A program made the position numbers and the translations under genes. Of a stretch of DNA of 64,000 nucleotides, positions 2,684-53,985 are shown one piece after another. The notes under the pieces were generated by a model, which saw only the letters and a list, made by a program, of their open reading frames with translations, had not been told where the DNA came from and made no database searches. Numbering within the stretch: position 1 is the first letter of the stretch; every line of letters begins with the position of its first letter. This DNA comes from Pelagomonas calceolata (Eukaryota). The DNA lies in the NCBI GenBank assembly GCA_918797485.1, contig CAKKNE010000002.1, forward strand, positions 1,736,001 through 1,800,000, read 5' to 3'.

Positions 2684-3782
2684 ATGGCTGTCCCAGACAA
2701 AGTAGCTTTGGGGTTGTTCTTCTTCTGGTGGTAACCGATCCAGCGTTTCGAGCCACGCCCAGCAGCAAAACTTGCAATGCCCCTCATGTTGCAAAATGAC
2801 GCCGCGCGCGCAACGCAGGTATGCCGGCAACACCAAGTACAACGAGTACAACAAGGGCGCGCTCGACGCCGTCGGCGGCAAGACGGCGGGCATGACGATG
2901 ACGGTGTCGACGATGCAGCTCGGGGTGTGCGCGCTCTACGCCTTGATTTTGTGGGTCGTTGGCTTGAACCCCGTCAAGCTCTGCGGCTTCCAGGCGCCCG
3001 ACAAGCAAGCCTTACCGAAGTCGACGAAGGACGACATCATCAAGACCGTGCCCGTGGGCTTCTGCGCGGCCGCGGCGCACTCTTCATCGGTATTTGCCCT
3101 GGGCGGCGACCCGCTCTTCGGCCAGATCGTCAAGGCCGGCGAGCCGGTCATGAGCGCGATCGTCAACACGCTCTTCTACGGCAAGCCGCCCTCCATCTTA
3201 AAGGCGGCGTGCCTCCCGATCATTGTGGGTGGCGTCATGTTCGCCTCGTTAAAGAAGCAGGCGGAAGGTGGCTACGCCCTCAAATTCGATATGACCGCGC
3301 TCCAGTTCGGGCTCCTCGCGAACTGCTTCGCGGCCTTCAAGGGTAGCGAATCGAAGAAGCTCATGACGGACCCGGGCATCAAGAAACGCTACGGCGGCGT
3401 CGGCAACCAGTACGCCGTCACGGAGATCCTGGCCTTCCTCATCTCGCTGCCGGTCATGTTCCTCACGGAGGGCGCCAAGTTCGGCGAGTTCGTCGAGCTC
3501 TTCAAGACGTCGTCGGACCTCCAGTTCAACCTCGTGATGTCCGGCATGATGTTCTACCTCTACAACGAGCTCGCGACGATGACAATCAAGGCGACGGGCG
3601 CCGTCACGGCGTCGGTGGCCAACACCGCGAAGCGGGTCATCGTGCTGGTGTACATGGCCATGGTCACGGGCAAGGCCCTGACGGACGAGCAGAAGATCGG
3701 CGCCGCCGTGGCCATCGGCGGCGTGCTCCTCTACTCGGTCATCGACGACCTGTTCAGCTCGAAGAAGACTAAAACGAAGTGA
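2684..3782 (+). CDS. Triose-phosphate/sugar-phosphate translocator (TPT, DMT superfamily); intron 2731-2818
   Basis: Exon 1 MAVPDKVALGLFFFW joins through a GT..AG intron to WYAGNTKYNEYNK. TPT motifs FGQIVKAGEPV, FYLYNE and SVANTAKRVIV; multiple TM helices. Confidence 0.88.
2731..2818 (+). other. Spliceosomal intron (GT-AG) in the TPT gene
   Basis: TG|GTAACC...ACGCAG|G; removal restores the FFFWWYAGN reading frame. Confidence 0.8.
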
Positions 3783-38879: not shown

Positions 38880-40016
38880 GTTTCTGTTTGTTGTTGTTCT
38901 TTTTCTTCGGTGCTTTGCGATTTGTGGTGCTCCCGTCGCGTTCGTCCGCGAGTGTCGGAGGTGTCTTGCGATCGCTCGGAGGCGTCGAGGACGGTTCCAT
39001 GGACGGGTCTTGTGTTTGCCTTGCGTCCTTTCGTGGGCCGCCTTGCGCATAACTTGCCTGAGGAGAGCGCTCTATGGGGCTTTTGTTGTCTCGTAAGCGC
39101 GACGTCATCGACGAGAGTACTTGCTTGGCGTTTCAAATAGCCTTCATAAACGTGACAAGTCGACTTCGCAAGCAATCGTTGATAACGCTTACTCTACAAA
39201 TAGTTACACAGAGCACTGTCATCTCCCCGGCGGGACCGTCGCCGACCAACGGCCCACGTTCCGCCCCCCTCAGTTTTGCGCTTTTGGATGTAAGTGCTAT
39301 GTTAATAATATGAGTGCACCATGCACCAGCCCGACTCGCGGCGATGGCGTGCTGATTTATGACTCCGAGATTCGCGGACGGGCCACGGACGCGAGCAGCC
39401 AAGGGGCCCTACTCACGACGAAGCGCCACCAGAGGCCTCCAGCTCCCCGTAAAGAAGCTCCCCCGACGCGTGCGTGGCGTTTGGACGAAAAACCTCGGGT
39501 CAGGCCGGTTGCTTCAGGCCAAAGACTTCACCCAGCCATCGCTGTCAAAACAGCTCGATTTAGGCACCGCGCAGCGTACCACCGACAGACACACTTCGCC
39601 ATCTTGCCGTCTGACACGGGGCCTTGGCCGCTGCCAGATTGTTTCGCAGCGCTGCGCCCCTCCGCGCGCGCAAACACAAAAGCAACCACACTCGCTGAAG
39701 AGTTGCCGCAGCGATGCAACGCCGCGCGCGCGCGCCCCACACATCGCCCGCGCGCGCTGCGGCAACGCCGCGGCGCGCGCTGCGGCAAGCAAAAGCGCGT
39801 AAACCCACAACTTCACCACGAGCGCTTCAACCGACTCACACGACAAAACCGCGCAGGCCCTCTTCCGCACGAAGCAGGGCAACCACGTCCAAGCTGAGAC
39901 GATAGCACCACATCCTACACCGCGCGCGGGAGTACCACGGTACTCTCTGAGAAGCAGCGCCAAGACCCGGACCACGGTAATTCGTGCGGCGGGGAGCGTG
40001 TAGTTTATCAACAACG

Positions 40017-42763
40017 ATGATTCATCGTTTGTTACAAGAGGAGCGGCCCTACGACATCCCCGTCGATGCGGCCTATGGCGTGCTGTTCGGCGTGCTCGGA
40101 GCGACGTTCCTCCTCACGGTCGCCGGTTTGTTCATGAAGAAGGGTTCTGGACTAGCAGGTGTCCTGCGGCCGACCGACGACTTCCTGTCGGCGCGGAACC
40201 GCTACAAGTGGCCTACTTTGGCTTTGTCGTTCTTCGCGTCGGGCATGGGCGCGTGGGTCATCTACGGCTCTCCGGAAATGGGCGCGATTCGCACTACCAG
40301 CTGGTGGGGCGTCCTCGGCTACTCTTCCGCCTCGGCGGCGGGCGGCTGGGTGCTCATGTGGCTCGGGCCCGTCGTGAAGCGCAAGGTTGGGGAAGACCAG
40401 GGGTTTTCGGCCGTCGACTTTGCGTTGAAGCGCTATGGTCGACTCATGCAGTTGCTCGTGATGGGCGTCTCGACCTTCTACATGTTCATCTATGTCGTGG
40501 CGGAACTGACGACGATCGCGAACGTGTATGCTACCTTTGTTGGTAAGAGTACGGTCGGGACCGACTCGGAGCATTACACGACCAAGATCAGTAGCATAGT
40601 GGTCATCTTCACCTGGGCTTACACGGCGCTAGCGGGTTTACCGGCGTCGATCCTCACGGACAAGTTCCAGGGCGTGACCATTTCTATTTTCGTCATCATG
40701 CTCCTCATTGCGACGACGACGCTCAAGTCGAACGAGGTACCGGCGCGGCGTCCCTATTCAATATTTATGGGAAGGGGGTGTAGCTCAGTGGCAGAGCGTC
40801 CGCTTTGCATGCGGAAAGCCCAGGGTTCAAACCCCTGCTCCTCCAAATCCCTTTATACACAAAAAACAACTCCGTGGCGCAATGGATAGCGTATCAGACT
40901 TCGAATCTGGGGGTTGCGGGTTCGAGTCCCGTCGGAGTTGTTTTGTATCATCGCTGTGACTGATCGCGCGGCGGCCGTTCAGTATCCGTGGCCGAGTTGG
41001 TCTTTCGTCGTTTGACGAGCCAAAAAGGCGTTGGATTTAAGCCCCAATCTCTTCGGAGGCGTGGGTTCGAACCCCACCGGATGCACATGAACGCCGTCGA
41101 CGCGATACCGGACGGACTGGAAATCTGAAGGCTACGGGTTCGACTCCCGTGTCGGTCTACCGCGGTTTGGACTTGTGATAGTGTGGCCGAGTGGTTAAGG
41201 CGGTAGACTTGAAATCTACTCCCGCAAGGGTCGCAGGATCGATTCTTTGACCAAGATCGATGCGCGTTCGAACCCTGTCACTATCGCACACGTTGATGAT
41301 GTGGCCGAGTGGTCTAAGCTCTTCTGAGCGACCAGAGGCGCTGGTTTTAGGCACCAGTCTTCGGGCGTGGGTTCGAACCCCACCATCATCACTTGAGTTC
41401 CATTCCGCCCATTTGTATCCGTGGCCGAGTTGGTCTAAGGCGTTGGATTTAAGCCCCAATCTCTTCGGAGGCGTGGGTTCGAACCCCACCGGATGCATTT
41501 GGACCGATTGGCGCAACGGCAGCGCGTCAGATTCCAGTCCTGAAGGTTACGTGTTCGAATCACGTATCGGTCACACTTTATCGTGTCGTATCCGTGGCCG
41601 AGTTGGTCTAAGGCGTTGGATTTAAGCCCCAATCTCTTCGGAGGCGTGGGTTCGAACCCCACCGGATGCACACGAACCGCGTGGCGCAATGGATAGCGCA
41701 TCAGACTTCTAATCTGGGGGTTGCGGGTTCGAGTCCCGCCGTGGTTAGCTCGCTAGACCGGTACATCTCCACACAGGTCTCGCAGAAGCAGTTAGACAAC
41801 GCGTCGGGCTGGTTCTCGGAAGGCTTCGAAGCCTTGGTGACGCTCTGGATCGCGATCATCTCCGCCGAGTTGTTTAATCAAGGCGCGTGGCAGCGGGTTT
41901 TTGCCGCCAAGACCGACCGCGACATGCGCATCGGCTTCGGCGTGGGCGGCTTCATGATCTTCCTGCTCATGCTGTTCTTTGGCATCATGGGCATGATCGC
42001 CTATGCGAGAGATCGGGAAAGTTACGATAACTTCATGAAGCTCGGGTACTTGTCGATCTTTGATTTGATCCGCAATTTGCCGCAGTTCTGGCATTATGTT
42101 ACTCTCATATTGTTGACGACCTTAGCGGCGTCGTCCATTGATACGCTCCAGAACGCTTTGGCTTCGGTCCTGTCGCACGACTTGATCAAGCACAAGCTCT
42201 CGCCGAACTGGTCTCGACTCGTCGTGATTGCTTTGAATATCGGCGCGGTCATCATGGCTAATAGACGCTACGAGGTCGTTCCCTTATTCTTAGTTGCTGA
42301 TTTAGTATGTGCGACGTGCGTCTTCCCCCTGTTCCTGGGGATCAGGACCGAAGACTGGGAGATTGGATCCATCAAAATCCCGGCGCCGACGGAGCTAGGA
42401 GCCTTCTTAGGAGCCATCAGCGCCATGGTCGCCGTCATTATTAATGGTGAAGTGAACAATGTCAACAAGGCCATCAACCCCTACACGGGCAAGGTCTACG
42501 ACCGCTCGGCTCTCGCCTACTTCTGGCTCATCCAGAACCCGACCGAGGAGTGCGCGTTGTGTGGTACGAAGACCATGGTGACCTTTATCATCGTGCCCCT
42601 CGTTGGGTTGTTTTTTACGTTCTTCTGGTCTTGTCTAGATGTGCTCGTCAGTGGCAAGTACGCGCGCAAGCCCTTCTGCTTCATTCCCCGGTTGGATGAT
42701 GTGGATGAGGAGGTGCCCCTCGTCAAGGATGATGAAAAGAAGGACGAGCCGCTCGAGGCCTAG
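40017..42763 (+). CDS. Sodium:solute symporter family transporter (DUR3/PutP-like); exons 40017-40736 and 41777-42763
   Basis: Exon 1 has DDFLSARN, SFFASGMGAW and YTALAGLPASILTDKFQG. Exon 2 has ELFNQGAWQRVFAAK and ASSIDTLQNA. A phase-0 GT..AG join gives KSNE|VSQKQL. Confidence 0.88.
40774..40845 (+). tRNA. tRNA-Ala(UGC)
   Basis: Cloverleaf with G3:U70, anticodon arm TCCGC-TTTGCAT-GCGGA, and T-loop TTCAAAC. Confidence 0.93.
40868..40940 (+). tRNA. tRNA-Arg(UCG)
   Basis: Acceptor AACTCCG/CGGAGTT; anticodon arm TCAGA-CTTCGAA-TCTGG; T-loop TTCGAGT. Confidence 0.93.
40982..41085 (+). tRNA. tRNA-Leu(UAA) with a 21-nt D-loop intron (41004-41024)
   Basis: Identical to the copies at 41415 and 41588 once TTCGTCGTTTGACGAGCCAAA is removed; BHB fold at the junctions. 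Confidence 0.88.
41112..41158 (+). pseudogene. Orphan tRNA 3' half (Trp-like)
   Basis: TCTGA-AGGCT-ACGGG-TTCGACT-CCCGT-GTCGGTC parallels the 3' half of tRNA-Trp at 41502; no adjacent D-arm or 5' acceptor strand. Confidence 0.6.
41177..41286 (+). tRNA. tRNA-Ser(UGA) with a 29-nt intron at the T-stem/T-loop boundary (41238-41266)
   Basis: Acceptor GATAGTG/CACTATC; anticodon arm GTAGA-CTTGAAA-TCTAC; long variable arm. Intron removal gives GCAGG-TTCGAAC-CCTGT. Confidence 0.88.
41295..41391 (+). tRNA. tRNA-Leu(UAG) with a 19-nt D-loop intron (41317-41335)
   Basis: Acceptor GATGATG/CATCATC; anticodon arm CTGGT-TTTAGGC-ACCAG. Intron removal gives D-arm GCCGAGTGGTCTAAGGC. Confidence 0.88.
41415..41497 (+). 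tRNA. tRNA-Leu(UAA), intronless
   Basis: 83-nt cloverleaf with variable arm; anticodon loop TTTAAGC. Confidence 0.93.
41502..41573 (+). tRNA. tRNA-Trp(CCA)
   Basis: Acceptor GACCGAT/ATCGGTC; anticodon arm TCAGA-TTCCAGT-CCTGA; T-loop TTCGAAT. Confidence 0.9.
41588..41670 (+). tRNA. tRNA-Leu(UAA), intronless
   Basis: Identical to 41415-41497. Confidence 0.93.
41675..41747 (+). tRNA. tRNA-Arg(UCU)
   Basis: Acceptor AACCGCG/CGTGGTT; anticodon arm TCAGA-CTTCTAA-TCTGG. Confidence 0.93.
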
Positions 42764-42876: not shown

Positions 42877-45831
42877 CTAGTACGTCCCTGCGGGCAGCGC
42901 GACGCGCGCCTTCTTCCGGCAGAGGGGGCAGGCGACCGACACACCGCTCCGTCGGCTCATCGACCGCTCCGCCTCGACCTTGGCGTAGGTCTCCGAGCAC
43001 GAGGCGCAGAGGGCGTGCGCGCAGTCGAAGACCGTCGCATCCGCCGCGAGCAGCTCATAACATATGGGGCACTCACCCGACGGCGCGACGACGGGCGTGG
43101 CCGGCGGCGTGACAGGCGCCACCGGTTCGACCGGCGCCGCGGCCGGTGGCCGGCGGCGGGCGCGCTTGCGCGCGGACGGTTTCGGCCGCGGCGTCGTCGG
43201 CTCGCGCTTCGACGGCGTCGCCTTGGGCGAGAGTGCCTTTTCGACGGCCGCCCGCGCCTGGGCGTTGGGCCCCCGCGCACCTACCTTCGCGCCGCTCGGC
43301 GGGTTTTCGAAGACGTCGCGCAGCCACATGCTCTGCCGCACACCGTCGTCGAAGACGATCGAGTAGCACCGCGCGTGCGCGACGCCGCTAACGCTGATGA
43401 CGGTGCCGCACCACCACACGTCCGGCTCAAATAACGCCCACACGCGGCGTCCGACAGCGTCCTGCTCTGAGTCGCTCTGTGGCGCGGAGCGCCGCCGCGC
43501 ACTCCCGTCCGAGGGCTCCCGCGGCGACGCCTTGACGCGCGGCGGGCCGTCAGCCTTCCGCAGGAACTTCGGCCGGATGAACTTGGCGCCTTCGGCGTCG
43601 AGATTAACGATGTTCCAGCCGTGCTTTTCTCCCGCGACGACGCCCGTCTGCCCAGCGAAGCGCGGGTCCTCGACGCGGACGCGCGTGCCCCTAGGCAAGC
43701 AGCTCGTCGACGGCACGGACGGCGTCGGTGCGGCCACCGACGAATCCGCCACGAACTCGCTCGCGTAACGGAAGACGTTTTGTCTGCCGTCCGCCTCGAC
43801 GCGACAGCATTGATCTACAAGGGACTTCGACATGCCGTTTATGGCTCCGGCGCCTCGAGGCGAGCAGTAGTGCGCGAGAACGTCTCCGGTCGGCGAGACG
43901 AGCAAGACCTGTCCGTTCCAGTCTCGCTGGTGACACTCGCAGTCCGGATCGTCGCCGGCCGAGCACGCCATCTTCGAGCACGTGATGCCGCCGTCGGTGC
44001 AGGTCCACGGGGACGAGGCCGCCAACGCAGCCGTATCCGCGTCGACGACGCGCCACTTGTCGCACGCCACGCACTGGACCCAGGAAGCCGGCTCCGGCTC
44101 CGGCTCGGGTCTTGGCGCCGGTGCCGGCGCCGGCTTCGGTTCTGGCGCCGGCGTCGGCTCGGTCCTCGGCCGCGACTGCGTGCCGCGCGCCACCGACGGC
44201 GCGAGGACCAGCGGCGCGCGGAAATCAGCCACGTCCAGCGCTTCGGTTCCGTCGGGCGACTCCGATCCGTCGCTATGCGACGCCTCCGCGTCGGACTCGT
44301 CGGAGAAGACCGCCCCGTCGGCGCGACTCCACTCGTTGCCGTGATCGGCTGGTTCGGAGTCAGACGCGTCGTTGTCGTCCCACTCGTCGGTTCGTCGGAC
44401 GCGTCGTCTTCGGTTCCGACTCCGCGGCTGCCGACCCCCCACAGAATAAGCTTGACCGGACCGGGCCCCCTTTATGTATAAGCCGCAACCGCTTTGGCCG
44501 GGCGCCTCGTCGTTCGGCACCAGCGACGTCTTCCAGATCTGCACGAGAGACACGCTGGCGGTCAGGTCTATGGACCCGCCCTTCTGCCGCGCATCAGAGC
44601 GCTGGACGAGCTTGAACTCGCGGCCCCAGTAGCCGTGGTTGTCCTCCGTGGAGATCTCGGTGCCGTTCAAACGGAACCGCGACATCGTCCTTGCGTTGAC
44701 GCCGCGCGTCGGGTCCTGAGGATCCCACCAAAACGCCCCGGGCTGGAAGCGAACCCTGATGGCGTCTTCGGGTAGCACTCGATATTCGCGAACCGCCTTC
44801 GACACGAAGAAAGCTAGATGGGGGGTCGTAAATGGCTCGAACGCTATGGCAGAGCCGTGAACGGCAAAACCCACGGGAAACGCCGAAGCGTCGTGCGCTA
44901 ACGCGAGCCGCCGCAGCAAATTATAGGCGCCGTCGGGCTTGACGAACTCACCCGCATTGAGGCGCCGCACCGCGTCGAGCTCGGCGGGCGTCGCCGGCGC
45001 TGCGGTCAGGGCTACGTCCGCCCGTCGAGGCGCAGAGAGCGCCACACTCGCCGCACCGCCATAATTTGACTTAGGCGCGATCTGTCGTCGCGCCGCCTCT
45101 TCTCCCACGGCCTTGGGTGCGACGTATCCGCGAGCGGCGCGCCAGCGGGTCTTGCGGTCGGCCAGCCACGCTTCGAAGTCGGCGCGCGCGACGCGTTTTA
45201 AGCTTCTCCCGAGTTGCGGCGCCGCTGCCGCGTCCACCTCTTCCGTCATGCTGCGACAGAGCGCCCGAATCTCGTGCCGCGCTAATTGCGGCGAGACCAA
45301 CAAATCGACCGCTTCCGTCATTTCGTGACAGAGCGAGGTGATTTCTCGTGTGCTCTTCGCGCGCTCACGGAGATCGTCGAGGTCCACTTCCGAAAAATCT
45401 GAATCGTACTCGTACCCCCGCTCGGCGCGCCAGCGGGTCTTGCGGTCGGCCAGCCACGCTTCGAAGTCGGCGCGCGCGACGCGTTTTAAGCTTCTCCCGA
45501 GTTGCGGCGCCGCTGCCGCGTCCACCTCTTCCGTCATGCTGCGACAGAGCGCCCGAATCTCGTGCCGCGCTAATTGCGGCGAGACCAACAAATCGACCGC
45601 TTCCGTCATTTCGTCCAGCGCCTCCCGGATGGTGTCGTCCAGCAAGTGTGGTCGTCGCGCCTCTTGTCGCAGCGCCGGCGCCGCGACGGCCTTGGCGGGC
45701 GCCGCGACGACGGCCTCGAGCGGCGGCGCCTCCCTCTGCGCAGACCTCTTCGCAGCCGCGTGTCGTCCAGCGCGCTCACGGATGGTGTCGAGGTCTACAT
45801 CAGAAAAGTCCGAGTCGTCTTCTGCAGCCAT
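42877..45831 (-). CDS. Mosaic chromatin protein A: internal repeat, zf-CW, NUMOD1-like HTH, KOW-like, Tudor-like, C-terminal RING
   Basis: WVQCVACDKWR..WTC (CW); VGRRVWALF..WW.GTV...YSIVFDDG (Tudor-like); CPIC..CAHALCASC..CPLCR (RING). Confidence 0.75.
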   Translation of the reverse strand: MAAEDDSDFSDVDLDTIRERAGRHAAAKRSAQREAPPLEAVVAAPAKAVAAPALRQEARRPHLLDDTIREALDEMTEAVDLLVSPQLARHEIRALCRSMTEEVDAAAAPQLGRSLKRVARADFEAWLADRKTRWRAERGYEYDSDFSEVDLDDLRERAKSTREITSLCHEMTEAVDLLVSPQLARHEIRALCRSMTEEVDAAAAPQLGRSLKRVARADFEAWLADRKTRWRAARGYVAPKAVGEEAARRQIAPKSNYGGAASVALSAPRRADVALTAAPATPAELDAVRRLNAGEFVKPDGAYNLLRRLALAHDASAFPVGFAVHGSAIAFEPFTTPHLAFFVSKAVREYRVLPEDAIRVRFQPGAFWWDPQDPTRGVNARTMSRFRLNGTEISTEDNHGYWGREFKLVQRSDARQKGGSIDLTASVSLVQIWKTSLVPNDEAPGQSGCGLYIKGARSGQAYSVGGRQPRSRNRRRRVRRTDEWDDNDASDSEPADHGNEWSRADGAVFSDESDAEASHSDGSESPDGTEALDVADFRAPLVLAPSVARGTQSRPRTEPTPAPEPKPAPAPAPRPEPEPEPASWVQCVACDKWRVVDADTAALAASSPWTCTDGGITCSKMACSAGDDPDCECHQRDWNGQVLLVSPTGDVLAHYCSPRGAGAINGMSKSLVDQCCRVEADGRQNVFRYASEFVADSSVAAPTPSVPSTSCLPRGTRVRVEDPRFAGQTGVVAGEKHGWNIVNLDAEGAKFIRPKFLRKADGPPRVKASPREPSDGSARRRSAPQSDSEQDAVGRRVWALFEPDVWWCGTVISVSGVAHARCYSIVFDDGVRQSMWLRDVFENPPSGAKVGARGPNAQARAAVEKALSPKATPSKREPTTPRPKPSARKRARRRPPAAAPVEPVAPVTPPATPVVAPSGECPICYELLAADATVFDCAHALCASCSETYAKVEAERSMSRRSGVSVACPLCRKKARVALPAGTY
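45135..45614. repeat. Near-identical direct repeat of about 192 bp (45135-45326 and 45423-45614); partial third copy at about 47424-47537
   Basis: Encodes EMTEAVDLLVSPQLARHEIRALCRSMTEEVD... twice in gene A (288-nt offset) and a close variant once in gene B. Confidence 0.9.
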
Positions 45832-46048
45832 CAGTGCGCGTTTGCGGCTGTCGGCTGTCAGAGCGACGCCGAGTGATGGTGCGTTACGCGTGCTGTGAGA
45901 AGCTGCAAGCAGTGAATGTTTGCGCGCACTGCGAGAAATGTTGCAGCAAGCCTACCTACCAATGCGTACCGTTGCCGTGCGCTTTGAACCTGCACAGCGC
46001 GAGAGCAAAAGGGAGAGCTTGCTAGTGTCTTACAGGTCCTAGCAGAAG

Positions 46049-49000
46049 TTACTCGTCCGAGCTCCGGCGGCGGCGTTTCGTCGGGCCCAGGGACAGCGAC
46101 GTATGCATCTCCTCGGGTAGGACGACCTTCGACGGCGCGCGACAGAGCGGACACGTGACCGACACGCCGCTCCGCCGGCTCATCGACCGCTCCACTTCGG
46201 ACTTTGCGTACGAGTCCGAGCACGAAGCGCACATCGCGTGGGAGCACTCGAAGACCGTCGCGTCCACCGTGAATCTATCGTAACAAATGGGGCAGTTCCC
46301 TGACGGCGCGACGGGCTTCTTTTTCCGTCGTGGCGCTGGTCTCGGCGCCGGCTCGGAGCTCTCTGCGTAGGCGGCATAGAAGCCCCTTTTCGGGCGCTTC
46401 CGCGGTTTCGGGCGCACCGGCGTCGTTGCCTTGGCCGAGAGGGCCCTCGTGACCGCAGTCCGCGCCTGGGCGTTGGGCCCCTGCGCGCCGACTTTGCCGC
46501 CTGCCGGCGGGCTAGACCACACGTCTCTCGCGTAGAAGGTTTGCGGAATGCCGTCGTCAAAAATGATGCTGCACATGCGCTTGTCCTCGACACCACGAAT
46601 ACCAACGACCGTCCCGCCCCACCACACGTCCGGCTCGAATAACGCCCACACACGGCTGTTTCGTCCCAGCGACGCCCGCCACCCGACCACGCGTCCGACG
46701 GCCGCCGCCTCGTCGTCGGCTGATTCGTCAGGCACCGGCGTGCCCGCGGCCGGCCTAAGCGCGTCGGCGGCGGCGTCGTCGGGCTCCGGCGCCGCGGCCG
46801 CGTCGGGCTCGGTCGGCGCGTCATCGTCGTCGGACTCGGTCTCGGACCGCGGTCGCTTCGCCTCGAAGGCCCGTAGTTTTCTTCTAAAATCAATCGGCAA
46901 GTCGTGGGAGCCGCGACCAATCCTTCTAGCTCGCATCGCCTTTTGCAGCTGCGACGATGATAAATCGGAGAATTCGTCCTGAATGTGCGCGTCCGCAGCC
47001 AATTCATCCCATTTATCCTCGACGTCCCGGGCAGACCGGCTAGTCCCGAGGAGCTCCGCTATCTGCCTCCACTCGTTTGACCCAGTCGGGTGGTGCTCCT
47101 CGACCAGCTCCCGGAGCTCGTCCTGCTCCTCGGCGCCCCAGCGCTTCCCCGTAACTGACACTGATAAATCGGAACATTCGTCCTCCTGAATCGCGTCCGC
47201 GGTCAGTTCTTTCCATTTATTCTTGACGGCCGACGTTGACCGGCCGTTCCCGTGCAGTTCCACTATTTTCCTCCAATCTTCTGAGCTCTCCGGGCGGTGC
47301 TCCTCAACAAGCTCCCGGAGCTCGGCCTCCTCCTCAGCGTCCCAGCGCGTAATGACTATACGTGAGACTATACGTGAAACCGGTGGTGCCACAGAAGCCG
47401 GGCGTGCCGCTGCGACCCGCTCATCCACCTCTTCCGTCATGCTGCGACAGAGCGCCCGAATCTCTTGCCGCGCTAAATGCGGCGAGACCAACAAGTCGAC
47501 TGCTTCGGTCATCTCGTGACAAAGCGAGGTGATTTCCCGCATCACTGCCGCGTTGACCGCACGCGACACGCCACGCGTCGTCGCACGGGTCATCGCGGCC
47601 GGCGGGTTCTGTCGGCGCGGCGGCGGCGGCACCTCTTCTCGTAATGAGGCGGGCAGCGGCGGCAGCGCGGCCAGCGTCATTGTGGACGGCGCCTCGTCGG
47701 GAAAGTTCAGGGGCACCCTGGCGCTCTTCATCAACGCCTTCCACTTCGTGCGCGCCGCGTCATAGGCCCGCGCGGCGTCGGCCTCGTCCTCGAAGTCGCC
47801 GAGCGGGATGCGGTAGCCCTTGACTTGTATGTTCGCGCGCCACCTTCTAATCCTCGCGTCCCAGCAGCAGCCCGCAAACCTAGAAGCCCGGTAGGTCGCA
47901 CCCATGGGCGGGTCCGCGGTCAATGTCGGGGGCGACGGCGGCGACGCCGTCACGGCCGTCGGGGGCGGCGACGGCGCCGGCCAGGCGACGGGCGACGGCG
48001 GCGCCGGCGGCACGACGGGCTTGGCCGGCCGCCGCGCCGCCTGCTCGCGCCGGTACGCGGCGCGGATCTCCGCGACGCTCGGCGCCGGCGCCAGCGTCGG
48101 CGGGGCCACAGGGACGACCTTCGGCGCGACGCGGCTCGCCCGGTAGGTGGCGCCTGTGTTGAGAAATAGCATGGACCTTCGTGAACCTCCACGCCATCGT
48201 GGGGCGCCCGAAATTTGATTTCCACACAAAGGCACGTGCCGGTGGGAGGGTCCGCAGTCAGTGAAGGGGGCGATGGCGGCGACGCCGTCACGGCCGTGGG
48301 AGGCGGCGACTGCGCCGCCAGCGGCAGGTCGCGGGCCTCAGCGTCGGCGAGCGGCGTTTCGGGCGGCGACGTGAAGGGTGCAGGCGGCGACGCCTCTTGG
48401 GCGAAGGCCCTTTCCCGCGCGGCCTTCTGCTTCGCGGCGCACGTCTTCCCGTGCTGCACCGCAGCCGGTGCGTGCGTGAAGAAGCGGTCGCAGCCGGCCG
48501 GGCAGGGGAACCGTTTTTGAGAGACGGCGCGCGGCGAGTCCGAGGAAGGAGGCGTCGGCGTCGGCGACGCCGACGAGGCGATGTCGTCGTCCGACGCCGC
48601 GAGCGCGCGCGCTGCCGCCTCGGCGGCCGCGAAGGCGCGCCCCGCCTCGCAGTAGCGGTGGTGGTTCGACCGGCCCGAGAGCGTCGTGAAGGCGCGGTCG
48701 CAGCCGCCACATTTATAAGTTTCGGGCTTCTCGAGCTTGGGCCTCGAGCCGCCTCTGAGCCATCGCGACGGCTCAGCGGCGGCGTCGTCGGACTCGGACT
48801 CGGCGCGCTGTCGCTTGGCGGCGGGTGGTAGCTTGCCGCAGCTCTTGCCGTGCGACACCGCCGCCGGGCCGTGGGCGAATGATCTGCCGCACCCCGCCGG
48901 GCACAAGTAGCGGCCCGAGCTATCGTTCACCCGCGCTGGCGCGTGCGCCCGCCGCCGCGGCGGCGCGTTCATGTTCGCGGCGGGCTCCGGCACTGGGGCG

Positions 49001-49308
49001 GGTTCCGACCTCGGCTCCGGCGCGGACTCGACCACGGGCTCCGCTACGGGCTCCGGCGTATCGACGGCCATCGGCGCGGGCGCTGCACCCTCGCCCTTCA
49101 GCTCGCGCCAGGCGTCGACGAATCGTCGCCGCGTCAGGACCGGCCACGAGTTGAGTGCCAGCAGCGATTCGAGCTCGTCCAGGTCGGAGCAGCGGAGGTC
49201 TTCGAGCGTGTCGGCCACGGCCGAAACCGGCGCGCGGTAGGCCTCGCTCACGTTCGCACCGAGCCACATTTGGAGCTCCCTCGAGCCCTCGGCCATCTTT
49301 CTCCTCAT
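46049..49308 (-). CDS. Mosaic protein B: SAM-like, 3x C2HC Zn finger, AP2, 2x Myb/SANT, Tudor-like, RING; GC-AG intron 48154-48239
   Basis: CPAGC.R.F.H....V.HGK.C fingers; AP2 SRFAGCCW..RRWRANI..LGDFEDEADAARAYD; Myb W..EE..EL..LV..W..I..RS..V..KW twice; RING. The two ORFs join in phase 1 as PPT-G-ATYRASR, matching a duplicate of that segment downstream. Confidence 0.78.
48154..48239 (-). mobile_element. Introner-like GC-AG intron with imperfect terminal inverted repeats
   Basis: Starts GCACGTGCCTTTGTGTGGAAATCAAATT and ends ATTTCTCAACACAG. Its 5' motif is nearly the reverse complement of the 3' end of the intron at 34918-34976. Confidence 0.6.
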
Positions 49309-49612
49309 TCTCGTCGTTCGTGTGGCTTATATTTTCAGCTAAATATCGGAGCCTTCACTACTCGCAAGCCGTGCGCGTCTGGACGAGCTGTGGAAACTCG
49401 TACCTTGGTACTTTATCGGTATAGGTATAGGTATAGAGGCCTAGCCAAAACGGGTTCCGGATTCGCTAGTATGCCTCCGTGGGGGGAGAAAGCAAACCCA
49501 CCCACCAATCAGGACTCCCAAAACATAGATAAAGAAACGTAGTATTAATACCTCACAACACCCCCTCGGGCAGCGCGAGGCGCTCGGGCCGGCGGCAGAT
49601 GGGGCACGCCAC

Positions 49613-52600
49613 CTACACACTACGGAGGATGGTGATCCGTCGTTCACTCTCGCCTGGATCCCGCCCAACAGTAGCGCTGGTACGCAGTCGGGCCCGCTTC
49701 GGCGAGGGCAGCGGCGGCGCCGCGTCGGCGCGGGGCCGCTTCGACTTGCCTTCGGACTCGGCGACGATGGCCCGGGCACGGGCGTTGGGCCCGTCGGCAC
49801 CAACTGTCGCCCCGGGCGGAGGCGAGCTGCGGACGTCCGCCGCCCAAACGCTCCGGCACTCGCCGTCGTCAAACACGACGTGGTAGCGCGTCTCGGCCAC
49901 GGGGCCGCTGCGAGACAGGACCGTCCCGCCCCACCATAGATCCGTATCGAAGTGGGCGAAGATTCGGTCTCCTGGTTCACTCTCCGTGCGGCCCGCGCCG
50001 ACGCGTCGCCGCCGCCGCAATTCCCACGTCAGGTCATGCGCGTATCGGAAGACGTTCTGCCTCCGGTCGGGATCGGGCTTGAGGCAAGCGTCGTGCACAG
50101 TCTTGCGCGATAAACGGTGACACGCCGCGGCGCCCTGCGGCGAGCAGTAGCGCATTTCGACGTCGTTCGCGGGCGAGACCAGCACGACCTCGCAGTTCGA
50201 CGTGTGGCACTCGCAAGTTGCGCACTCCGTCAGCGAGCACTCGACCGACTCGCAGGTCTTGATGCCATCGCGACAGGTCCACTCCTCCGGGAGATCGGCA
50301 AGGTCCGTTCCGGGGGGCAGCACGCGCCATTTTTCGCAGCGCGCGCACTGCGCCCAGGACGCCGATTCCGGTGGTGGTATTATTGGTATGGCCGCGTCGC
50401 GCTCCAGGCGAGGCATGTTGTGGTCCGGCGGTCTGGAGGCCGCCGCGCGTCCCGCCTCGCAGACGAGCGCCGCCGCGCCTTCACTATCGAAGTTCCCAAG
50501 GAACCCATCGCGCTCGCCGAGCTGCGCGCGGAACCGACCTTCGGTCCCCAGGCGGTAGACGCCGCGCCGCCGCGTCGCCACGGCGTGCGCAGGCAACAGC
50601 CAGTCCGTCTGCCAGCGGAAACACACGCCGTCAGCGTCCTTGGCCCGCCCCTCGAGGCAGTCGAACACGGCCTTTTCTGCCAGGCCGAACTCGGCGGCCG
50701 CGGCGGCCGGCGTCTCGTACGCGTAGAGCTCCTCCACCGAATTCGCCGGATCAAACCACGCCACCGTCGCGACGGCGTCGCCGACGGGCGCGGCGGCCGA
50801 CGGGCGCACGACGTGCTGGAATCTCTCGAGTAAGCGCAAGTCGCACGACAGCAGCCGCGTGATGGACCGCCGGCCCTGGATCTCGGACACCGCGCCGCTG
50901 CGCATCGACTTGAGGATGTCTTTGAACAGGTGGCATACGGGGCCCGGCTGGCGCCTCAGGGCGGCCTGGAACGCGTACAGGGCGGACGCGTCCCAGCTCG
51001 CCCGCGTTCCCGCCGCGACGTGGACTGATGAGATCATCTCCCTGCCAAGCTCGCCGAGCACCGCAGCGACGGGCCGCTCCCTGGCATAGGCCTCGCGGAT
51101 AGCCTCCAGGTCGGCCGCGGCGAGGGCCCGCGCTTCCGCCGCGGCCGCTTCGGCGACGCGCACCGCTTCGTTCATTAACCGGTTGAGCTCCTGCTCGAAC
51201 GCGCCCTTCGGCTCGCGCTCTCCGTCCCGCAGCTTGGACCAAGTCGAGAAGCGCATGGTAGCGAACCATCTGTAGACTTGTTCCGGGGTCTTGCCCGTCT
51301 GTCGCACGAGCGTCGCCCACTCGGCCTTGTTAGGATATGGGTGCGCCGCGTGCGCCAAGGTCCACTTCTGGAGCAACTCGAGCCAGTCGTCAGCCAGGGG
51401 AGGCGCGGCTGGAGCCGCCGTCACTACGGCGTCCACCGAGTCGTCGTCCGGCTCCGAGTCAGAAGAGGAGAAGCCCGCCGTCGGCGGCGCGGCCTTTGGT
51501 CGCGGAGGCGGCGGCGCGTCCTCTGGCACCGCGTCCTGTCGCGTCGGCGCGGGCTCTTGTGGGGGAGGCGACCCCTCCGTGGGCAGGACCGGCACGCCCG
51601 GCGGCGCGGCCTCGGCAGTCGCCGCCGCCGGTGCGAGGACAGCGGCCGTCGCGGCGGGCTGCTTTGGTCCGTCCGCCCGCATCGCCTTCATGAGGGACGC
51701 GCAAGTGACCTTGGGAGCGGGAGGGATGTCCAGGACTGTGACATCTCCGTTCCAGTGATGAGGTTTGGCGGCTGCGGGCTCGTCTTCTTCGTCGAAGAAC
51801 GCCTCGTCCGTCACGCAGTCCCCGTCGCCGTACCGCACGTGCCACAATATCGCGCCGTCCTCCTCGACACAGTGGACGTCCAGAAGCGTGCCCGTGAACG
51901 TCTCGCCGGCGTGGTCCGCGGCGAAAGCCTCGCCGAACGCCGTTGCCGGGACTTCGACGACCATGCCGGGCCGATACTCGGACTCGTCCGGCCAACTCAC
52001 TTGGGTCACCACGTGCTCCATCGTCTCGCGGAGCGCCGCCTGTGAAGCGGGCCCGGTACCGGCAAGCGCCGGCGCGGGGTGCTCGAGCCGGCGCGCTAGG
52101 AGCTGCTGGACGTGCCTCTTGCTGTGGGTCGCCCGATAGGTGACGCCGTAACGATCGCACATCTCGAGGACGTGCTGGTGGTCGTTCGGGACGAGGCGCC
52201 GTCTAACCTCGGCAGCACTCCGTTCGTGCGCCGTCGGCGACGGGAACTGGAGTGGCGCCGCGGCCGCGGCCAGGTCGGCCGTGGCCCACGCCACGGCGAC
52301 GGCCGCCTTGGCCTCGTCCTGCTGTCGGAGCAACAACACCCGGCGTTCTCTCCTCGTCTCGAGCGCGTCCCGAGCGGCGGCGCCGGCCCGCACGCGTGCC
52401 TCCCACGCGCCCCGAAACGCCGTGGGGCCGCGCCTGATGTCATCGTCGTCCTCGTCATCGTCGGTTTCGATTGTCTGGACCTTTGTATCCATTGTGCCAT
52501 CGGGGTAGGTCGTGCCGCGCGGCAGCGCGCGCGGCGGCCGGCGCTCGCGTTCGATCTGGCGAGACGCCACGCCGCGCGTGGGTGGCGACGGTAGCGCGTC

Positions 52601-53647
52601 CAGCACATCGGCGCGCGGCGCTTCCCCGGGGAAATTGAGCGTCCTCCCAGAAAGCTCGTACTTTACTACCGCTGCGTCGTAGTTCCGCGCGGCGTCCTCC
52701 TCGACGTCGAAGAGGCCGAGTTCTACTGTAGACCCTCGCACGTAGATCTGCGCCTTCCACTTACTGTAACTGTCGTGCCACGAAACGCCCGTAAAGCGAC
52801 TGGTCTTGGCGCGACCGTTATAGGCGCGGCCAGACACCGGCGCCGCGGGAGGCGGCCGCGCGCCGCGCGCCGCGCAGAACCTGCCGTGCTGAATGGCCGC
52901 CGGCGCGTACGTGAAGGTCCGCGCGCAGCCAGCCGGGCACCGGAAGCAGCCCCGCGTGCTGCGCGTGCTGCGGTCGTGCTTGTACTCGGCATCGGTTCGG
53001 TAGGCACCACCGGTTCCCGCGAGGGCGAGGGCGCCGTCCAGGTACTTCCTCAACGTGGCCAGCCCAAACACGTAGTCGCGGGCTGCGTATTCCTTGCCGA
53101 CGATGTCGTAGTAGCACGGGAAGTCCGGCGGCACCGTGATGGCATAATAATCACCTGATCTCCCCTGTTCCGGACCGCAGCGGAAGCCGCAGCTCGTCAG
53201 CGATTTGCGGAGGCCCCTCATGTTCGTGAGGTCCTTCGCGGCCTCGAGCAGGTCCGCGCACGCGGCGACCCAGGGCGACGCCGCGGACGCGACGTGGGGC
53301 AGCTCGCACGGCCGCTCCGCGTCCGCGTCCGCATCTGCGACGGGCGCGGCGGCGCCCTCCGCGCGGCGCCCTTTGAGCGTGCTCGCCGCCGACGCCGTCA
53401 GCGCGCCCGCGCCCCGCGCCGCGTCGTCTGCGTCGTCCGCGTCCACGTCGTCGTTTAGGACCTCGCAGATGACCTCGCACATCTCATCGCATATCTTCTC
53501 GCCGAGGAGGCACCAAAAAAGCGCCTCGCCCGCGCTGGCGCGCGCCGCCCCTGAGCTAGGTGAGCTAGGTGAGCTATGCTGCCCGCTGCCGGCCCGCGGC
53601 GCCGCCGCGGTTGCTTTGCGCTGTTCGGTGGGTCTGCTGGGGACCAT
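49613..53647 (-). CDS. Mosaic protein C: C2HC finger, AP2, TALE-type homeodomain, NUMOD1-like HTH x2, degenerate AP2, zf-CW, Tudor-like
   Basis: TSRFTGVSW...LGLFDVEEDAARNYD (AP2); LQKW..H..HPYP..E...L...TG....QV..WF (TALE homeobox); WAQCARCEKWR..WTC (CW). Start codon uncertain. Confidence 0.78.
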   Translation of the reverse strand: MVPSRPTEQRKATAAAPRAGSGQHSSPSSPSSGAARASAGEALFWCLLGEKICDEMCEVICEVLNDDVDADDADDAARGAGALTASAASTLKGRRAEGAAAPVADADADAERPCELPHVASAASPWVAACADLLEAAKDLTNMRGLRKSLTSCGFRCGPEQGRSGDYYAITVPPDFPCYYDIVGKEYAARDYVFGLATLRKYLDGALALAGTGGAYRTDAEYKHDRSTRSTRGCFRCPAGCARTFTYAPAAIQHGRFCAARGARPPPAAPVSGRAYNGRAKTSRFTGVSWHDSYSKWKAQIYVRGSTVELGLFDVEEDAARNYDAAVVKYELSGRTLNFPGEAPRADVLDALPSPPTRGVASRQIERERRPPRALPRGTTYPDGTMDTKVQTIETDDDEDDDDIRRGPTAFRGAWEARVRAGAAARDALETRRERRVLLLRQQDEAKAAVAVAWATADLAAAAAPLQFPSPTAHERSAAEVRRRLVPNDHQHVLEMCDRYGVTYRATHSKRHVQQLLARRLEHPAPALAGTGPASQAALRETMEHVVTQVSWPDESEYRPGMVVEVPATAFGEAFAADHAGETFTGTLLDVHCVEEDGAILWHVRYGDGDCVTDEAFFDEEDEPAAAKPHHWNGDVTVLDIPPAPKVTCASLMKAMRADGPKQPAATAAVLAPAAATAEAAPPGVPVLPTEGSPPPQEPAPTRQDAVPEDAPPPPRPKAAPPTAGFSSSDSEPDDDSVDAVVTAAPAAPPLADDWLELLQKWTLAHAAHPYPNKAEWATLVRQTGKTPEQVYRWFATMRFSTWSKLRDGEREPKGAFEQELNRLMNEAVRVAEAAAAEARALAAADLEAIREAYARERPVAAVLGELGREMISSVHVAAGTRASWDASALYAFQAALRRQPGPVCHLFKDILKSMRSGAVSEIQGRRSITRLLSCDLRLLERFQHVVRPSAAAPVGDAVATVAWFDPANSVEELYAYETPAAAAAEFGLAEKAVFDCLEGRAKDADGVCFRWQTDWLLPAHAVATRRRGVYRLGTEGRFRAQLGERDGFLGNFDSEGAAALVCEAGRAAASRPPDHNMPRLERDAAIPIIPPPESASWAQCARCEKWRVLPPGTDLADLPEEWTCRDGIKTCESVECSLTECATCECHTSNCEVVLVSPANDVEMRYCSPQGAAACHRLSRKTVHDACLKPDPDRRQNVFRYAHDLTWELRRRRRVGAGRTESEPGDRIFAHFDTDLWWGGTVLSRSGPVAETRYHVVFDDGECRSVWAADVRSSPPPGATVGADGPNARARAIVAESEGKSKRPRADAAPPLPSPKRARLRTSATVGRDPGESERRITILRSV

Positions 53648-53985
53648 GTAAGCTCAAGCTGCCCCTGCGGGTCCGTATCGCGCGAGCGCGCGCAACCTAC
53701 ATAGGAGGCGAGAAGGCCACCCCTTTGCCAGAGAGCGAGCTAGCGCTGCGCAATTGAGGCATCGGACGCCTCCGTCGTAGGCAGAGAGACGTCGCAGCGA
53801 CGCCTAGCCTCTTTTTTTGCGCGCCCTAGTGGGCATCTGCCGCTAGCTAGCTGCGACACGGACGAAGGACAAGAGCGACAAAATCCCGGCATCGATCGCT
53901 TCAGTCGACAAAACAAGGCAGAAAGTGCTGCCAGTTGCGGGCAGCATCGATTCTGCATCGCTGCGCATCACTGCTGGACTACAAG

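What the first reader, a model, noticed from the sequence alone, without database searches (positions are those of the whole stretch)
40982..41391. Three tRNAs with archaeal-type bulge-helix-bulge introns at non-canonical positions (D-loop x2, T-loop boundary)
Seen: each insertion folds as a 4-bp helix flanked by two 3-nt bulges plus an intron hairpin. Cutting after the second bulge nucleotide restores a normal tRNA in every case. Leu-UAA: helix TGGT/GCCA, cuts CT|T and AA|A, intron 41004-41024. Ser-UGA: helix CGCA/TGCG, cuts GG|A and CG|T, intron 41238-41266, restoring TTCGAAC. Leu-UAG: helix GGTC/GACC, cuts TA|A and AG|A, intron 41317-41335. The three intron sequences are unrelated, so the structure rather than the sequence is shared. 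Established: nuclear tRNA introns are normally at 37/38; BHB introns elsewhere are typical of archaea and known from a few algae such as Cyanidioschyzon. Inference: this apparently stramenopile genome has a TSEN that recognises BHB motifs independent of position. I am not aware of that being described for this lineage, and standard eukaryotic tRNA scans could miss these genes.
Basis: partly seen in the sequence, partly recalled or inferred. Interest (0 to 1): 0.92.

Follow-up and report, generated by a model that had tools for sequence, protein, structure and literature searches.

The report
tRNA arrays riding inside mobile introns
In a marine pelagophyte alga, three tRNA genes carry archaeal-style hairpin inserts that are likely spliced out, and they sit in a nine-gene tRNA array packed inside what is predicted to be an ordinary mRNA intron whose near-copies interrupt many unrelated genes and likely move between them, while one of the interrupted tRNA genes also occurs almost unchanged in giant viruses.

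Summary
Confirmed and extended. The three inserts (Leu-UAA 20b/21, Leu-UAG 21/22, Ser-UGA 53/54) are relaxed BHB (HBh') introns. In related loci 40 of 40 distinct intron sequences keep the motif, with compensatory changes, while the exons are nearly invariant. Splicing itself was not seen (0 joints in 279 polyA reads). The host is a pelagophyte; nine paper searches found no report of such introns in stramenopiles.

(1) The nine-tRNA array fills a 1,040-nt GT-AG intron of a transporter gene. Introns with the same ends and similar arrays occur at 15 sites in 10 host genes, alternate present/absent at three sites of one gene, and several alleles are transcribed in one culture: a likely mobile tRNA-cassette intron family. 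(2) An orphan tRNA 3' half, conserved with stem covariation, pairs with the downstream Trp 5' half into a permuted cloverleaf enclosing three tRNAs; its junction is not a BHB. (3) AT-rich giant-virus contigs carry the same Leu-UAA gene, its upstream spacer and host-type intron alleles.

The scan's earlier notes held no match on other DNA.

The parts
39981..40736 (+). Exon 1 frame of a sodium:solute symporter (SSF) gene (stop-to-donor; start codon not fixed)
   Evidence: Pfam SSF E=9.8e-5; open frame
40737..41776 (+). 1,040-nt GT-AG spliceosomal intron (predicted) that holds the whole tRNA array
   Evidence: Removal gives one uninterrupted frame of 252+328 codons; same site occupied in L093 and L113
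40737..40753 (+). Conserved 5' end motif of the cassette-intron family; its first 7 nt are complementary to 41758-41764
   Evidence: 23 of 23 motif hits in 118 kb of loci have a tRNA within 220 nt
40774..40845 (+). tRNA-Ala(UGC), intronless
40868..40940 (+). tRNA-Arg(UCG), intronless
40982..41085 (+). tRNA-Leu(UAA) with D-loop intron
41004..41024 (+). HBh' intron at 20b/21 (H 4 bp with one G-U, h' 5 bp)
41114..41122 (+). Leader of the orphan half, complementary to the Trp anticodon loop and following bases (41532-41540)
   Evidence: Unconstrained fold of 41088-41580
41123..41158 (+). Orphan tRNA 3' half (positions 38-73, U73); pairs with Trp 5' half 41502-41537 into a circularly permuted cloverleaf
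41162..41175 (+). Spacer predicted to pair with spacer 41392-41408, clamping Ser-UGA and Leu-UAG
41177..41286 (+). tRNA-Ser(UGA) with intron at the T-stem/T-loop boundary, which splits the B box
41238..41266 (+). HBh' intron at 53/54 (H 4 bp, h' at least 6 bp)
41295..41391 (+). tRNA-Leu(UAG) with D-loop intron
41317..41335 (+). HBh' intron at 21/22 (H 4 bp, h' 4 bp)
41415..41497 (+). tRNA-Leu(UAA), intronless, same exon sequence as the intron-bearing copy
41502..41573 (+). tRNA-Trp(CCA), linear form has an A31-C39 mismatch; its 5' half is the partner of the orphan 3' half
41588..41670 (+). tRNA-Leu(UAA), second intronless copy
41675..41747 (+). tRNA-Arg(UCU), intronless
41777..42763 (+). Exon 2 of the SSF gene

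Best explanation
The three inserts are likely functional tRNA introns, predicted to be cut at their HBh' motifs by the tRNA splicing endonuclease and rejoined by RtcB, and their genes belong to a polycistronic tRNA cassette carried by a multi-copy, likely mobile family of spliceosomal introns in pelagophyte algae. SHOWN: motif conservation with covariation; the array fills a GT-AG interruption of an open frame; related cassettes sit at many unrelated gene sites, always in the sense direction; one-strand polycistronic precursors that still hold the tRNA introns exist, from several paralogues in one culture. INFERRED: the cassette is mostly transcribed as part of the host pre-mRNA (about 55%; otherwise by TFIIIC-independent Pol III from the AT-rich stretch after the donor), released by RNase P and tRNase Z, then spliced at the BHB motifs. 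Freedom from the internal A/B-box promoter would explain why an intron can split the Ser B box. The orphan 3' half pairs with the Trp 5' half and likely acts as a permuted, tRNA-shaped clamp and processing site around the inner tRNAs. Copies likely spread by intron transposition without a long target duplication. The Leu-UAA gene with its intron has likely been exchanged more than once with an AT-rich giant virus, host to virus.
For: BHB motif kept in 10 of 10 Leu-UAA, 17 of 17 Leu-UAG and 13 of 13 Ser-UGA distinct introns; shuffle rates 0-0.005. Exons differ from the window by 0.4-1.0 nt on average over 9, 27 and 24 complete copies, while hairpin positions show up to four different pair types. 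No intronless Ser-UGA or Leu-UAG among the window and 33 host-type loci. 16 curated complete introns at 15 sites in 10 host genes; three sites of one ABC/EF-3-like gene are alternately filled or empty among orthologues 84-93% identical. No run of 5 or more T beyond the first 40 nt in 16 of 16 introns. 279 reads of one culture sample, all of one strand, show intron and spacer alleles identical to loci in other host genes. The published Pelagomonas calceolata annotation lists two TSEN catalytic-domain proteins, Sen54 and RtcB, Brf1 and Bdp1, but no TFIIIC term in the stored part, about 14,640 of 16,667 genes. Viral copies: 79 of 83 and 77 of 83 exon bases identical, all differences compensatory, same upstream spacer, one intron identical to host locus L120.
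Against: No read skipped a tRNA intron (0 joints in 279 reads), although polyA libraries and the tool's silent removal of human-like reads make this a weak negative. The outer helix of a strict BHB is absent. Leu-UAA has intronless twins, so its intron copy is dispensable. The metagenome scan required a Leu D-loop insert, so absence of intronless Leu-UAG is biased. Terminal pairing beats shuffles (p<0.05) in only 9 of 16 introns and no target duplication over 4 nt exists. At least one contig (L132) is chimeric, and presence/absence could reflect loss as well as gain. No transposase or genome-wide census was possible. The window's own allele is a minority of reads (8 of 180 at 41288; 6 of 90 at 41322). 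Absence of TFIIIC from an annotation table is weak evidence.
Confidence: 0.72

Rival explanations
1. The tRNA introns are real, but the cassettes are not mobile elements: an older intron family with shared ends was filled and homogenised by ectopic gene conversion, and the tRNAs are made by upstream-promoter Pol III as in Cyanidioschyzon.
For: AT- or T-rich stretch between donor and first tRNA in every cassette; TATA-dependent, TFIIIC-independent transcription is proposed for C. merolae (PMC3978253, PMC3728597, passages); near-identical paralogues and a chimeric contig show recombination-prone repeats; no long TSD.
Against: 23 of 23 end-motif hits carry tRNAs, so empty family members were not seen in the sampled flanks; empty sites in orthologues are clean exon junctions at three separate positions; no T-run terminator.
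Confidence: 0.2
2. The inserts are hairpin insertions that inactivate redundant copies (pseudogenes); mature Ser-UGA, Leu-UAG and Leu-UAA come from intronless genes elsewhere.
For: Intronless Leu-UAA twins exist; no spliced reads; whole genome not searchable.
Against: Exons nearly invariant while introns diverge with compensation, and helix spacing is exact in 40 of 40 variants; 24 of 24 Ser-UGA copies carry the intron; viral relatives keep the same geometry.
Confidence: 0.05
3. Sub-question: the orphan 3' half and the Trp 5' half are spliced into a real circularly permuted tRNA whose intervening segment holds other tRNA genes, a stage in the duplication-and-loss origin of permuted genes.
For: T-stem fully paired in 10 of 10 variants with five different stem sequences; 21 of 26 orphan copies have a Trp 5' half 135-362 nt downstream, 4 others run off the contig and 1 has a degenerate Trp; acceptor stem 7 of 7 pairs in 20 of 21; in L091 and L127 the Trp has lost its own 3' half; the model is described in PMC3978253 (passages).
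Against: The junction has no conserved 3-nt bulge (0 to 5 unpaired nt across loci); discriminator is U in 10 of 10 variants whereas A73 is the eukaryotic Trp determinant (PMC9976931, passages); most cassettes keep an intact linear Trp; some cassettes lack the orphan.
Confidence: 0.3

Closest known systems
Ectopic BHB tRNA introns of Cyanidioschyzon merolae (PMC3728597, passages) and Chondrus crispus (10.1101/2021.12.21.473619, whole text)
   Same: Short nuclear tRNA introns in the D-loop (20/21 in Chondrus) and at 53/54 (C. merolae Ile-UAU); HBh' class described; A/B boxes interrupted; TFIIIC not found in C. merolae.
   Different: Those are red algae, with genes flanked by TATA-like and T-stretch signals in C. 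merolae and splicing verified by RT-PCR. Here: a stramenopile, multi-copy polycistronic arrays inside mRNA introns, no T-run terminator, splicing unverified.
Introner elements of Aureococcus and Pelagomonas (PMC9860276 passages; PMC9481584 main text and supplement passages; Huff 2016 not held, known only through these)
   Same: Repeated introns with shared ends at unrelated exon sites, GT or GC donors, partly complementary termini, presence/absence between relatives, same algal class.
   Different: No 8-bp target duplication; length 153-1,040 nt rather than about 210; interior is a cargo of conserved tRNA genes. The word tRNA does not occur in the main text of either paper. Whether these ends match the published logo could not be seen (figure).
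Circularly permuted tRNA genes of C. merolae, Mamiellophyceae and the Bigelowiella nucleomorph (PMC3978253, parts 1-2 of 11 and passages)
   Same: 3' half upstream of 5' half, junction at 37/38, leader pairs with trailer.
   Different: Known intervening segments are 1-74 nt; here 135-362 nt holding one to three other tRNA genes. No conserved BHB at the junction, U73, and the 5' half usually keeps its own 3' half.
Intron-bearing tRNA genes of giant viruses (PMC11946776, passages)
   Same: Giant viruses carry tRNA genes, Leu most often, some with introns.
   Different: That survey used ARAGORN calls in the anticodon arm of amoeba viruses. Here the viral genes have D-loop and T-loop BHB-type introns, up to three per gene, and share intron alleles with an algal nuclear gene.
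Intron-hosted snoRNA clusters (recalled, no call)
   Same: Small stable RNAs arrayed in the sense direction inside host-gene introns.
   Different: Cargo is tRNA, the carrier intron is repeated across unrelated genes, and co-transcription is inferred, not shown.

Membership tests
Non-canonical BHB-type tRNA introns | 4-bp central helix between exon and intron | tested here: met
   40 of 40 distinct introns
Non-canonical BHB-type tRNA introns | Cuts after the second base of each 3-nt bulge restore a standard tRNA | tested here: met
   Leu-UAA product equals intronless twins
Non-canonical BHB-type tRNA introns | Inner helix h' with covariation | tested here: met
   3-6+ bp in all; up to four pair types per position
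Non-canonical BHB-type tRNA introns | Outer helix h of more than 2 bp (strict hBHBh' subclass only) | tested here: not met
   h = 0-1 bp, so the recognised relaxed HBh' subclass applies
Non-canonical BHB-type tRNA introns | Spliced mature tRNA detected | tested here: inconclusive
   0 joints in 279 polyA reads over Ser-UGA and Leu-UAG introns; library type unsuited
Non-canonical BHB-type tRNA introns | Cleavage by the organism's TSEN | not testable with these tools
   Subunits annotated in a pelagophyte genome paper; own genome not held
Introner elements (Aureococcus/Pelagomonas type) | Similar introns repeated at unrelated sites | tested here: met
   16 introns, 15 sites, 10 genes
Introner elements (Aureococcus/Pelagomonas type) | Presence/absence between close relatives | tested here: met
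   Three sites of one gene among orthologues 84-93% identical
Introner elements (Aureococcus/Pelagomonas type) | Terminal inverted repeats | tested here: inconclusive
   End pairing beats 500 shuffles at p<0.05 in 9 of 16; 3' arm lies about 12 nt inside the acceptor
Introner elements (Aureococcus/Pelagomonas type) | 8-bp target site duplication | tested here: not met
   Longest junction repeat 4 nt; empty sites differ only by the intron
Introner elements (Aureococcus/Pelagomonas type) | Autonomous transposase partner | not testable with these tools
   No genome
Circularly permuted tRNA genes | 3' half upstream of a 5' half, forming a cloverleaf | tested here: met
Circularly permuted tRNA genes | BHB motif at the leader/trailer junction | tested here: not met
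   Unpaired stretch before position 39 varies from 0 to 5 nt; no 5' bulge
Circularly permuted tRNA genes | Short intervening segment (1-74 nt in known cases) | tested here: not met
   135-362 nt with nested tRNAs (known range)
Circularly permuted tRNA genes | Circular intermediate and charged product | not testable with these tools
   Reads were laid on 41206-41357 only

The most novel reading that the evidence does not exclude
Pelagophyte algae keep their rare-codon tRNA genes on a dedicated mobile spliceosomal intron: a self-removing tRNA operon that hops between protein genes, is expressed from whichever host pre-mRNA it lands in, is cut up by a BHB-reading endonuclease and a permuted tRNA that encloses other tRNA genes, and trades intron-bearing tRNA genes with AT-rich giant viruses whose preferred codons it decodes.
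Probability: 0.4. Interest if true: 0.94.

Novelty: new variant of a known kind. Interest (0 to 1): 0.86.

Why it matters
It extends archaeal-style tRNA splicing to a culturable stramenopile with an apparently ordinary TSEN subunit set, which makes the open question of how a eukaryotic endonuclease reaches D- and T-loop introns testable. Intron-bearing and intronless twins of one tRNA, many natural intron alleles and viral copies give a rare system for watching tRNA introns arrive, spread and vanish. If the carrier intron is mobile, it is an introner-like element with useful cargo, linking intron gain, tRNA gene dosage and host-gene transcription. The cassette serves A-ending codons that are rare in the host (UUA 9.7% of Leu, UCA 8.7% of Ser, AGA 7.5% of Arg) and common in the viral contigs (52%, 31%, 62%), which points to a role at the alga-virus interface.

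Tried and rejected
Whole-genome census: no genome held. Relaxed ARAGORN (-ps85, introns) gave 155 mostly spurious calls and was discarded. The ARAGORN tRNA-Pro call at 33504 has no Rfam support and was rejected. In the 54 metagenome loci, 4 were chance non-tRNA matches and were dropped; 15 tRNA-like loci of other, unassigned lineages were kept apart; 1 was viral-type; 34 were host-type, of which L123 was missed by my annotation script and is absent from the counts. The automatic intron-boundary script misplaced several junctions; only 16 hand-checked introns were used, and the L095 acceptor was set 2 nt short. A strict BHB at the orphan/Trp junction was sought in every register and not found. 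An Aureococcus-type 8-bp TSD was not found. The idea that the 5' end motif is a general intron feature was not supported: no closer match than three edits elsewhere in the window. Lineage of the other D-loop-intron loci: atlas unavailable twice. Huff 2016 not held. Earlier scan notes: no match by words or place. Literature searches without a hit for this arrangement; Maruyama 2010 and subscription papers were not readable, and one supplement of PMC9481584 (scanned) and its introner logo figure could not be seen.
Full report
1. Observation. The positions are 20b/21, 53/54 and 21/22. Each has a 4-bp exon-intron helix, two exon bases plus one intron base before an intron hairpin, and two intron bases plus one exon base after the helix. 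The outer helix is 0-1 bp, so the motif is the relaxed HBh' class named in PMC3728597 (passages). Shuffled introns meet the same test in 0.03-0.5% of 20,000 trials, and slid registers fail. Two intronless Leu-UAA copies with the same exon sequence lie in the same array.

2. Host. The window is about 65% GC with eukaryotic genes. Ribosomal protein L5 has its closest named homologues in Pelagophyceae at 76-82% identity, and an unnamed marine cluster at 98%. Public runs holding the region come from one cultured organism and from marine metatranscriptomes. No whole genome is held.

3. Conservation. A metagenome scan for Leu tRNAs with a D-loop insert returned 54 loci: 34 host-type, 1 viral-type, 15 tRNA-like loci of other lineages and 4 chance matches. 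Host-type assignment rests on near-identical tRNA exons, GC content and a shared SSF site, not on a tree. Over the window, 33 host-type loci and 2 viral loci, the BHB test is met by 10 of 10 Leu-UAA, 17 of 17 Leu-UAG and 13 of 13 Ser-UGA distinct introns. Exons differ from the window by 0.44, 0.37 and 1.0 nt on average in 9, 27 and 24 complete copies, while the hairpins show many double changes. No intronless Ser-UGA or Leu-UAG was seen; for Leu-UAG this is biased by the search pattern. This pattern is what selection on a spliced, working tRNA predicts and is hard to square with pseudogenes.

4. The carrier intron. The array (Ala-UGC, Arg-UCG, Leu-UAA with intron, orphan half, Ser-UGA, Leu-UAG, Leu-UAA, Trp-CCA, Leu-UAA, Arg-UCU) interrupts a sodium:solute symporter frame. 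Removing 40737-41776 (GT...AG) gives one open frame. Related arrays sit, in the sense direction, in introns with the same 5' end and similar 3' end at other genes: an ABC/EF-3-like gene (4 sites), a cyclophilin, a cold-shock-domain gene, a bile-acid symporter, a methyltransferase, a TPR protein and unnamed genes. I checked 16 complete introns at 15 sites in 10 genes, 153-1,040 nt long. In the ABC gene, three sites are alternately filled or cleanly empty among orthologues 84-93% identical. All 23 hits to the 5' motif in 118 kb of loci have a tRNA within 220 nt; the loci were chosen around tRNAs, so this is not a genome-wide figure. End pairing beats shuffles in 9 of 16, and no junction repeat exceeds 4 nt. 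So it behaves like an introner but fails the 8-bp TSD of the Aureococcus type (PMC9860276, passages). L132 joins exons of two genes and is likely a misassembly through the repeat.

5. RNA. Four polyA runs of one culture sample were laid on 41206-41357. 279 reads were laid, all with the first mate on the minus strand, which in most stranded libraries means plus-strand RNA. They keep the tRNA introns and run across genes and spacers. No joint was found. This shows polycistronic precursors but not splicing; mature tRNAs are not expected in such libraries and the tool drops human-like reads without notice. The reads carry several alleles identical to loci in other host genes (types L125, L135, L091, and close to L094 and L120), and the window's allele is a minority (8 of 180 at 41288). 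The cassette is therefore multi-copy within one culture, though strain mixture or heterozygosity could add alleles. The host splice junction and the orphan/Trp junction lie outside the stretch laid and remain untested by reads.

6. Transcription route (inferred). None of the 16 introns has a run of five T beyond its first 40 nt, the Ser intron splits the B box, and the stored part of the P. calceolata annotation (about 14,640 of 16,667 genes) lists Brf1 and Bdp1 but no TFIIIC term. It also lists two TSEN catalytic-domain proteins, Sen54 and RtcB. I favour co-transcription with the host pre-mRNA and release by RNase P and tRNase Z (about 55%) over upstream-promoter Pol III as proposed for C. 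merolae.

7. Orphan half. 41123-41158 is a tRNA 3' half without a 5' half. It occurs in 26 copies; the T-stem is fully paired in 10 of 10 variants with five different sequences, and position 73 is U in all. With its leader it folds with the Trp 5' half into a permuted cloverleaf (-45.6 kcal/mol as a two-strand fold including the leader helix, against -23.2 for linear Trp), and leader and anticodon-stem pairing also appear in the unconstrained fold of 41088-41580. 21 of 26 copies have the partner 135-362 nt downstream; in L091 and L127 the Trp has lost its own 3' half. Against a true permuted gene: no conserved bulge at the junction, and U73 where eukaryotic Trp uses A73. I read it as a tRNA-shaped clamp, with 30% on a spliced product.

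8. Viruses. Three AT-rich contigs (30-32% GC; two from giant-virus MAGs by name, one metagenome contig with the same flanks) carry the same Leu-UAA gene. Exon identity is 79 of 83 (L081) and 77 of 83 (L109), all changes compensatory, and the upstream spacer resembles the host spacer. L109's D-loop intron is identical to that of host locus L120, L081's resembles the window's, and L137 lacks it. All three add a T-loop intron at 55/56 with a 3-of-4 helix; neighbouring viral Tyr, Ile and Asn genes show further inserts, read by eye. Host-to-virus transfer is inferred from the spacer; the virus's host is unknown. The cassette's codons are rare in window genes and common in the viral genes (11,197 and 1,983 codons; host frames were stop-to-stop, so rare codons are overcounted).

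9. Novelty. A 2026 review names only red algae, O. tauri and nucleomorphs for atypical tRNA architectures (PMC13578239, passages); PlantRNA 2.0 includes two heterokonts and reports non-canonical introns only in red algae (whole text). Two pelagophyte genome papers do not mention tRNA in their main text. Nine searches found no stramenopile case, no tRNA-carrying introner and no BHB introns in giant-virus tRNAs; the library lacks most subscription papers. The BHB introns alone are a new member of a known kind. The carrier intron family, the nested permuted module and the viral exchange make the whole a new variant with no close precedent that I could find.

10. Verdict. Observation confirmed; interpretation partly supported and incomplete. 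Confidence 0.72 in the combined explanation (about 0.9 for functional BHB-type introns, about 0.7 for mobility of the carrier). Interest 0.86.

Noticed in passing
window 41019-41085, 41415-41497, 41502-41573; L081, L109, L137: An A31-C39 mismatch closes the anticodon stem in both Leu-UAA and Trp-CCA and is kept in all relatives and in the viral copies, even where a neighbouring pair changes compensatorily (L137). Could be tolerated, edited or a lineage identity feature.
   Followed up: no
L109 oriented 3130-3282; L081 2758-2865; L137: Viral tRNA-Ile(UAU) with three inserts (D-loop, 37/38, 55/56); the 55/56 intron is nearly the same sequence in the viral Leu and Ile genes, suggesting intron copying between tRNA genes. 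Viral Tyr has or lacks a D-loop insert between relatives.
   Followed up: partly
L085, L089, L090, L106, L108, L121, L130, L131, L133: A second, unassigned GC-rich eukaryote group with Leu-AAG and Leu-UAG D-loop introns at 20b/21 (4-bp helix, short hairpin), as single genes rather than intronic arrays.
   Followed up: partly
L112, L115, L124, L101, L092: Further unassigned loci with D-loop inserts; L112 and L115 have both a 21/22 and a 53/54 insert in one Leu-UAG gene, L124 has two inserts. Such introns may be widespread in protists.
   Followed up: partly
L019, L080, L065, L010, L045, L011, L052: Other viral contigs, three from giant-virus MAGs, with D-loop inserts in Leu or Ser tRNA genes unrelated to the host sequence.
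   Followed up: no
L083 2890-2990; L091 2110-2250: A conserved structured stretch before Leu-UAA in some cassettes, possibly a degenerate Arg-CCU gene or another small RNA.
   Followed up: no
window 40957-40982: Spacer loosely resembling a decayed Trp 5' half; conserved in several paralogues.
   Followed up: no
window 42877-53653 (-): Tandem set of long frames with RING, Myb, AP2, CW-zinc-finger, homeobox and Tudor domains, with repeated segments.
   Followed up: no
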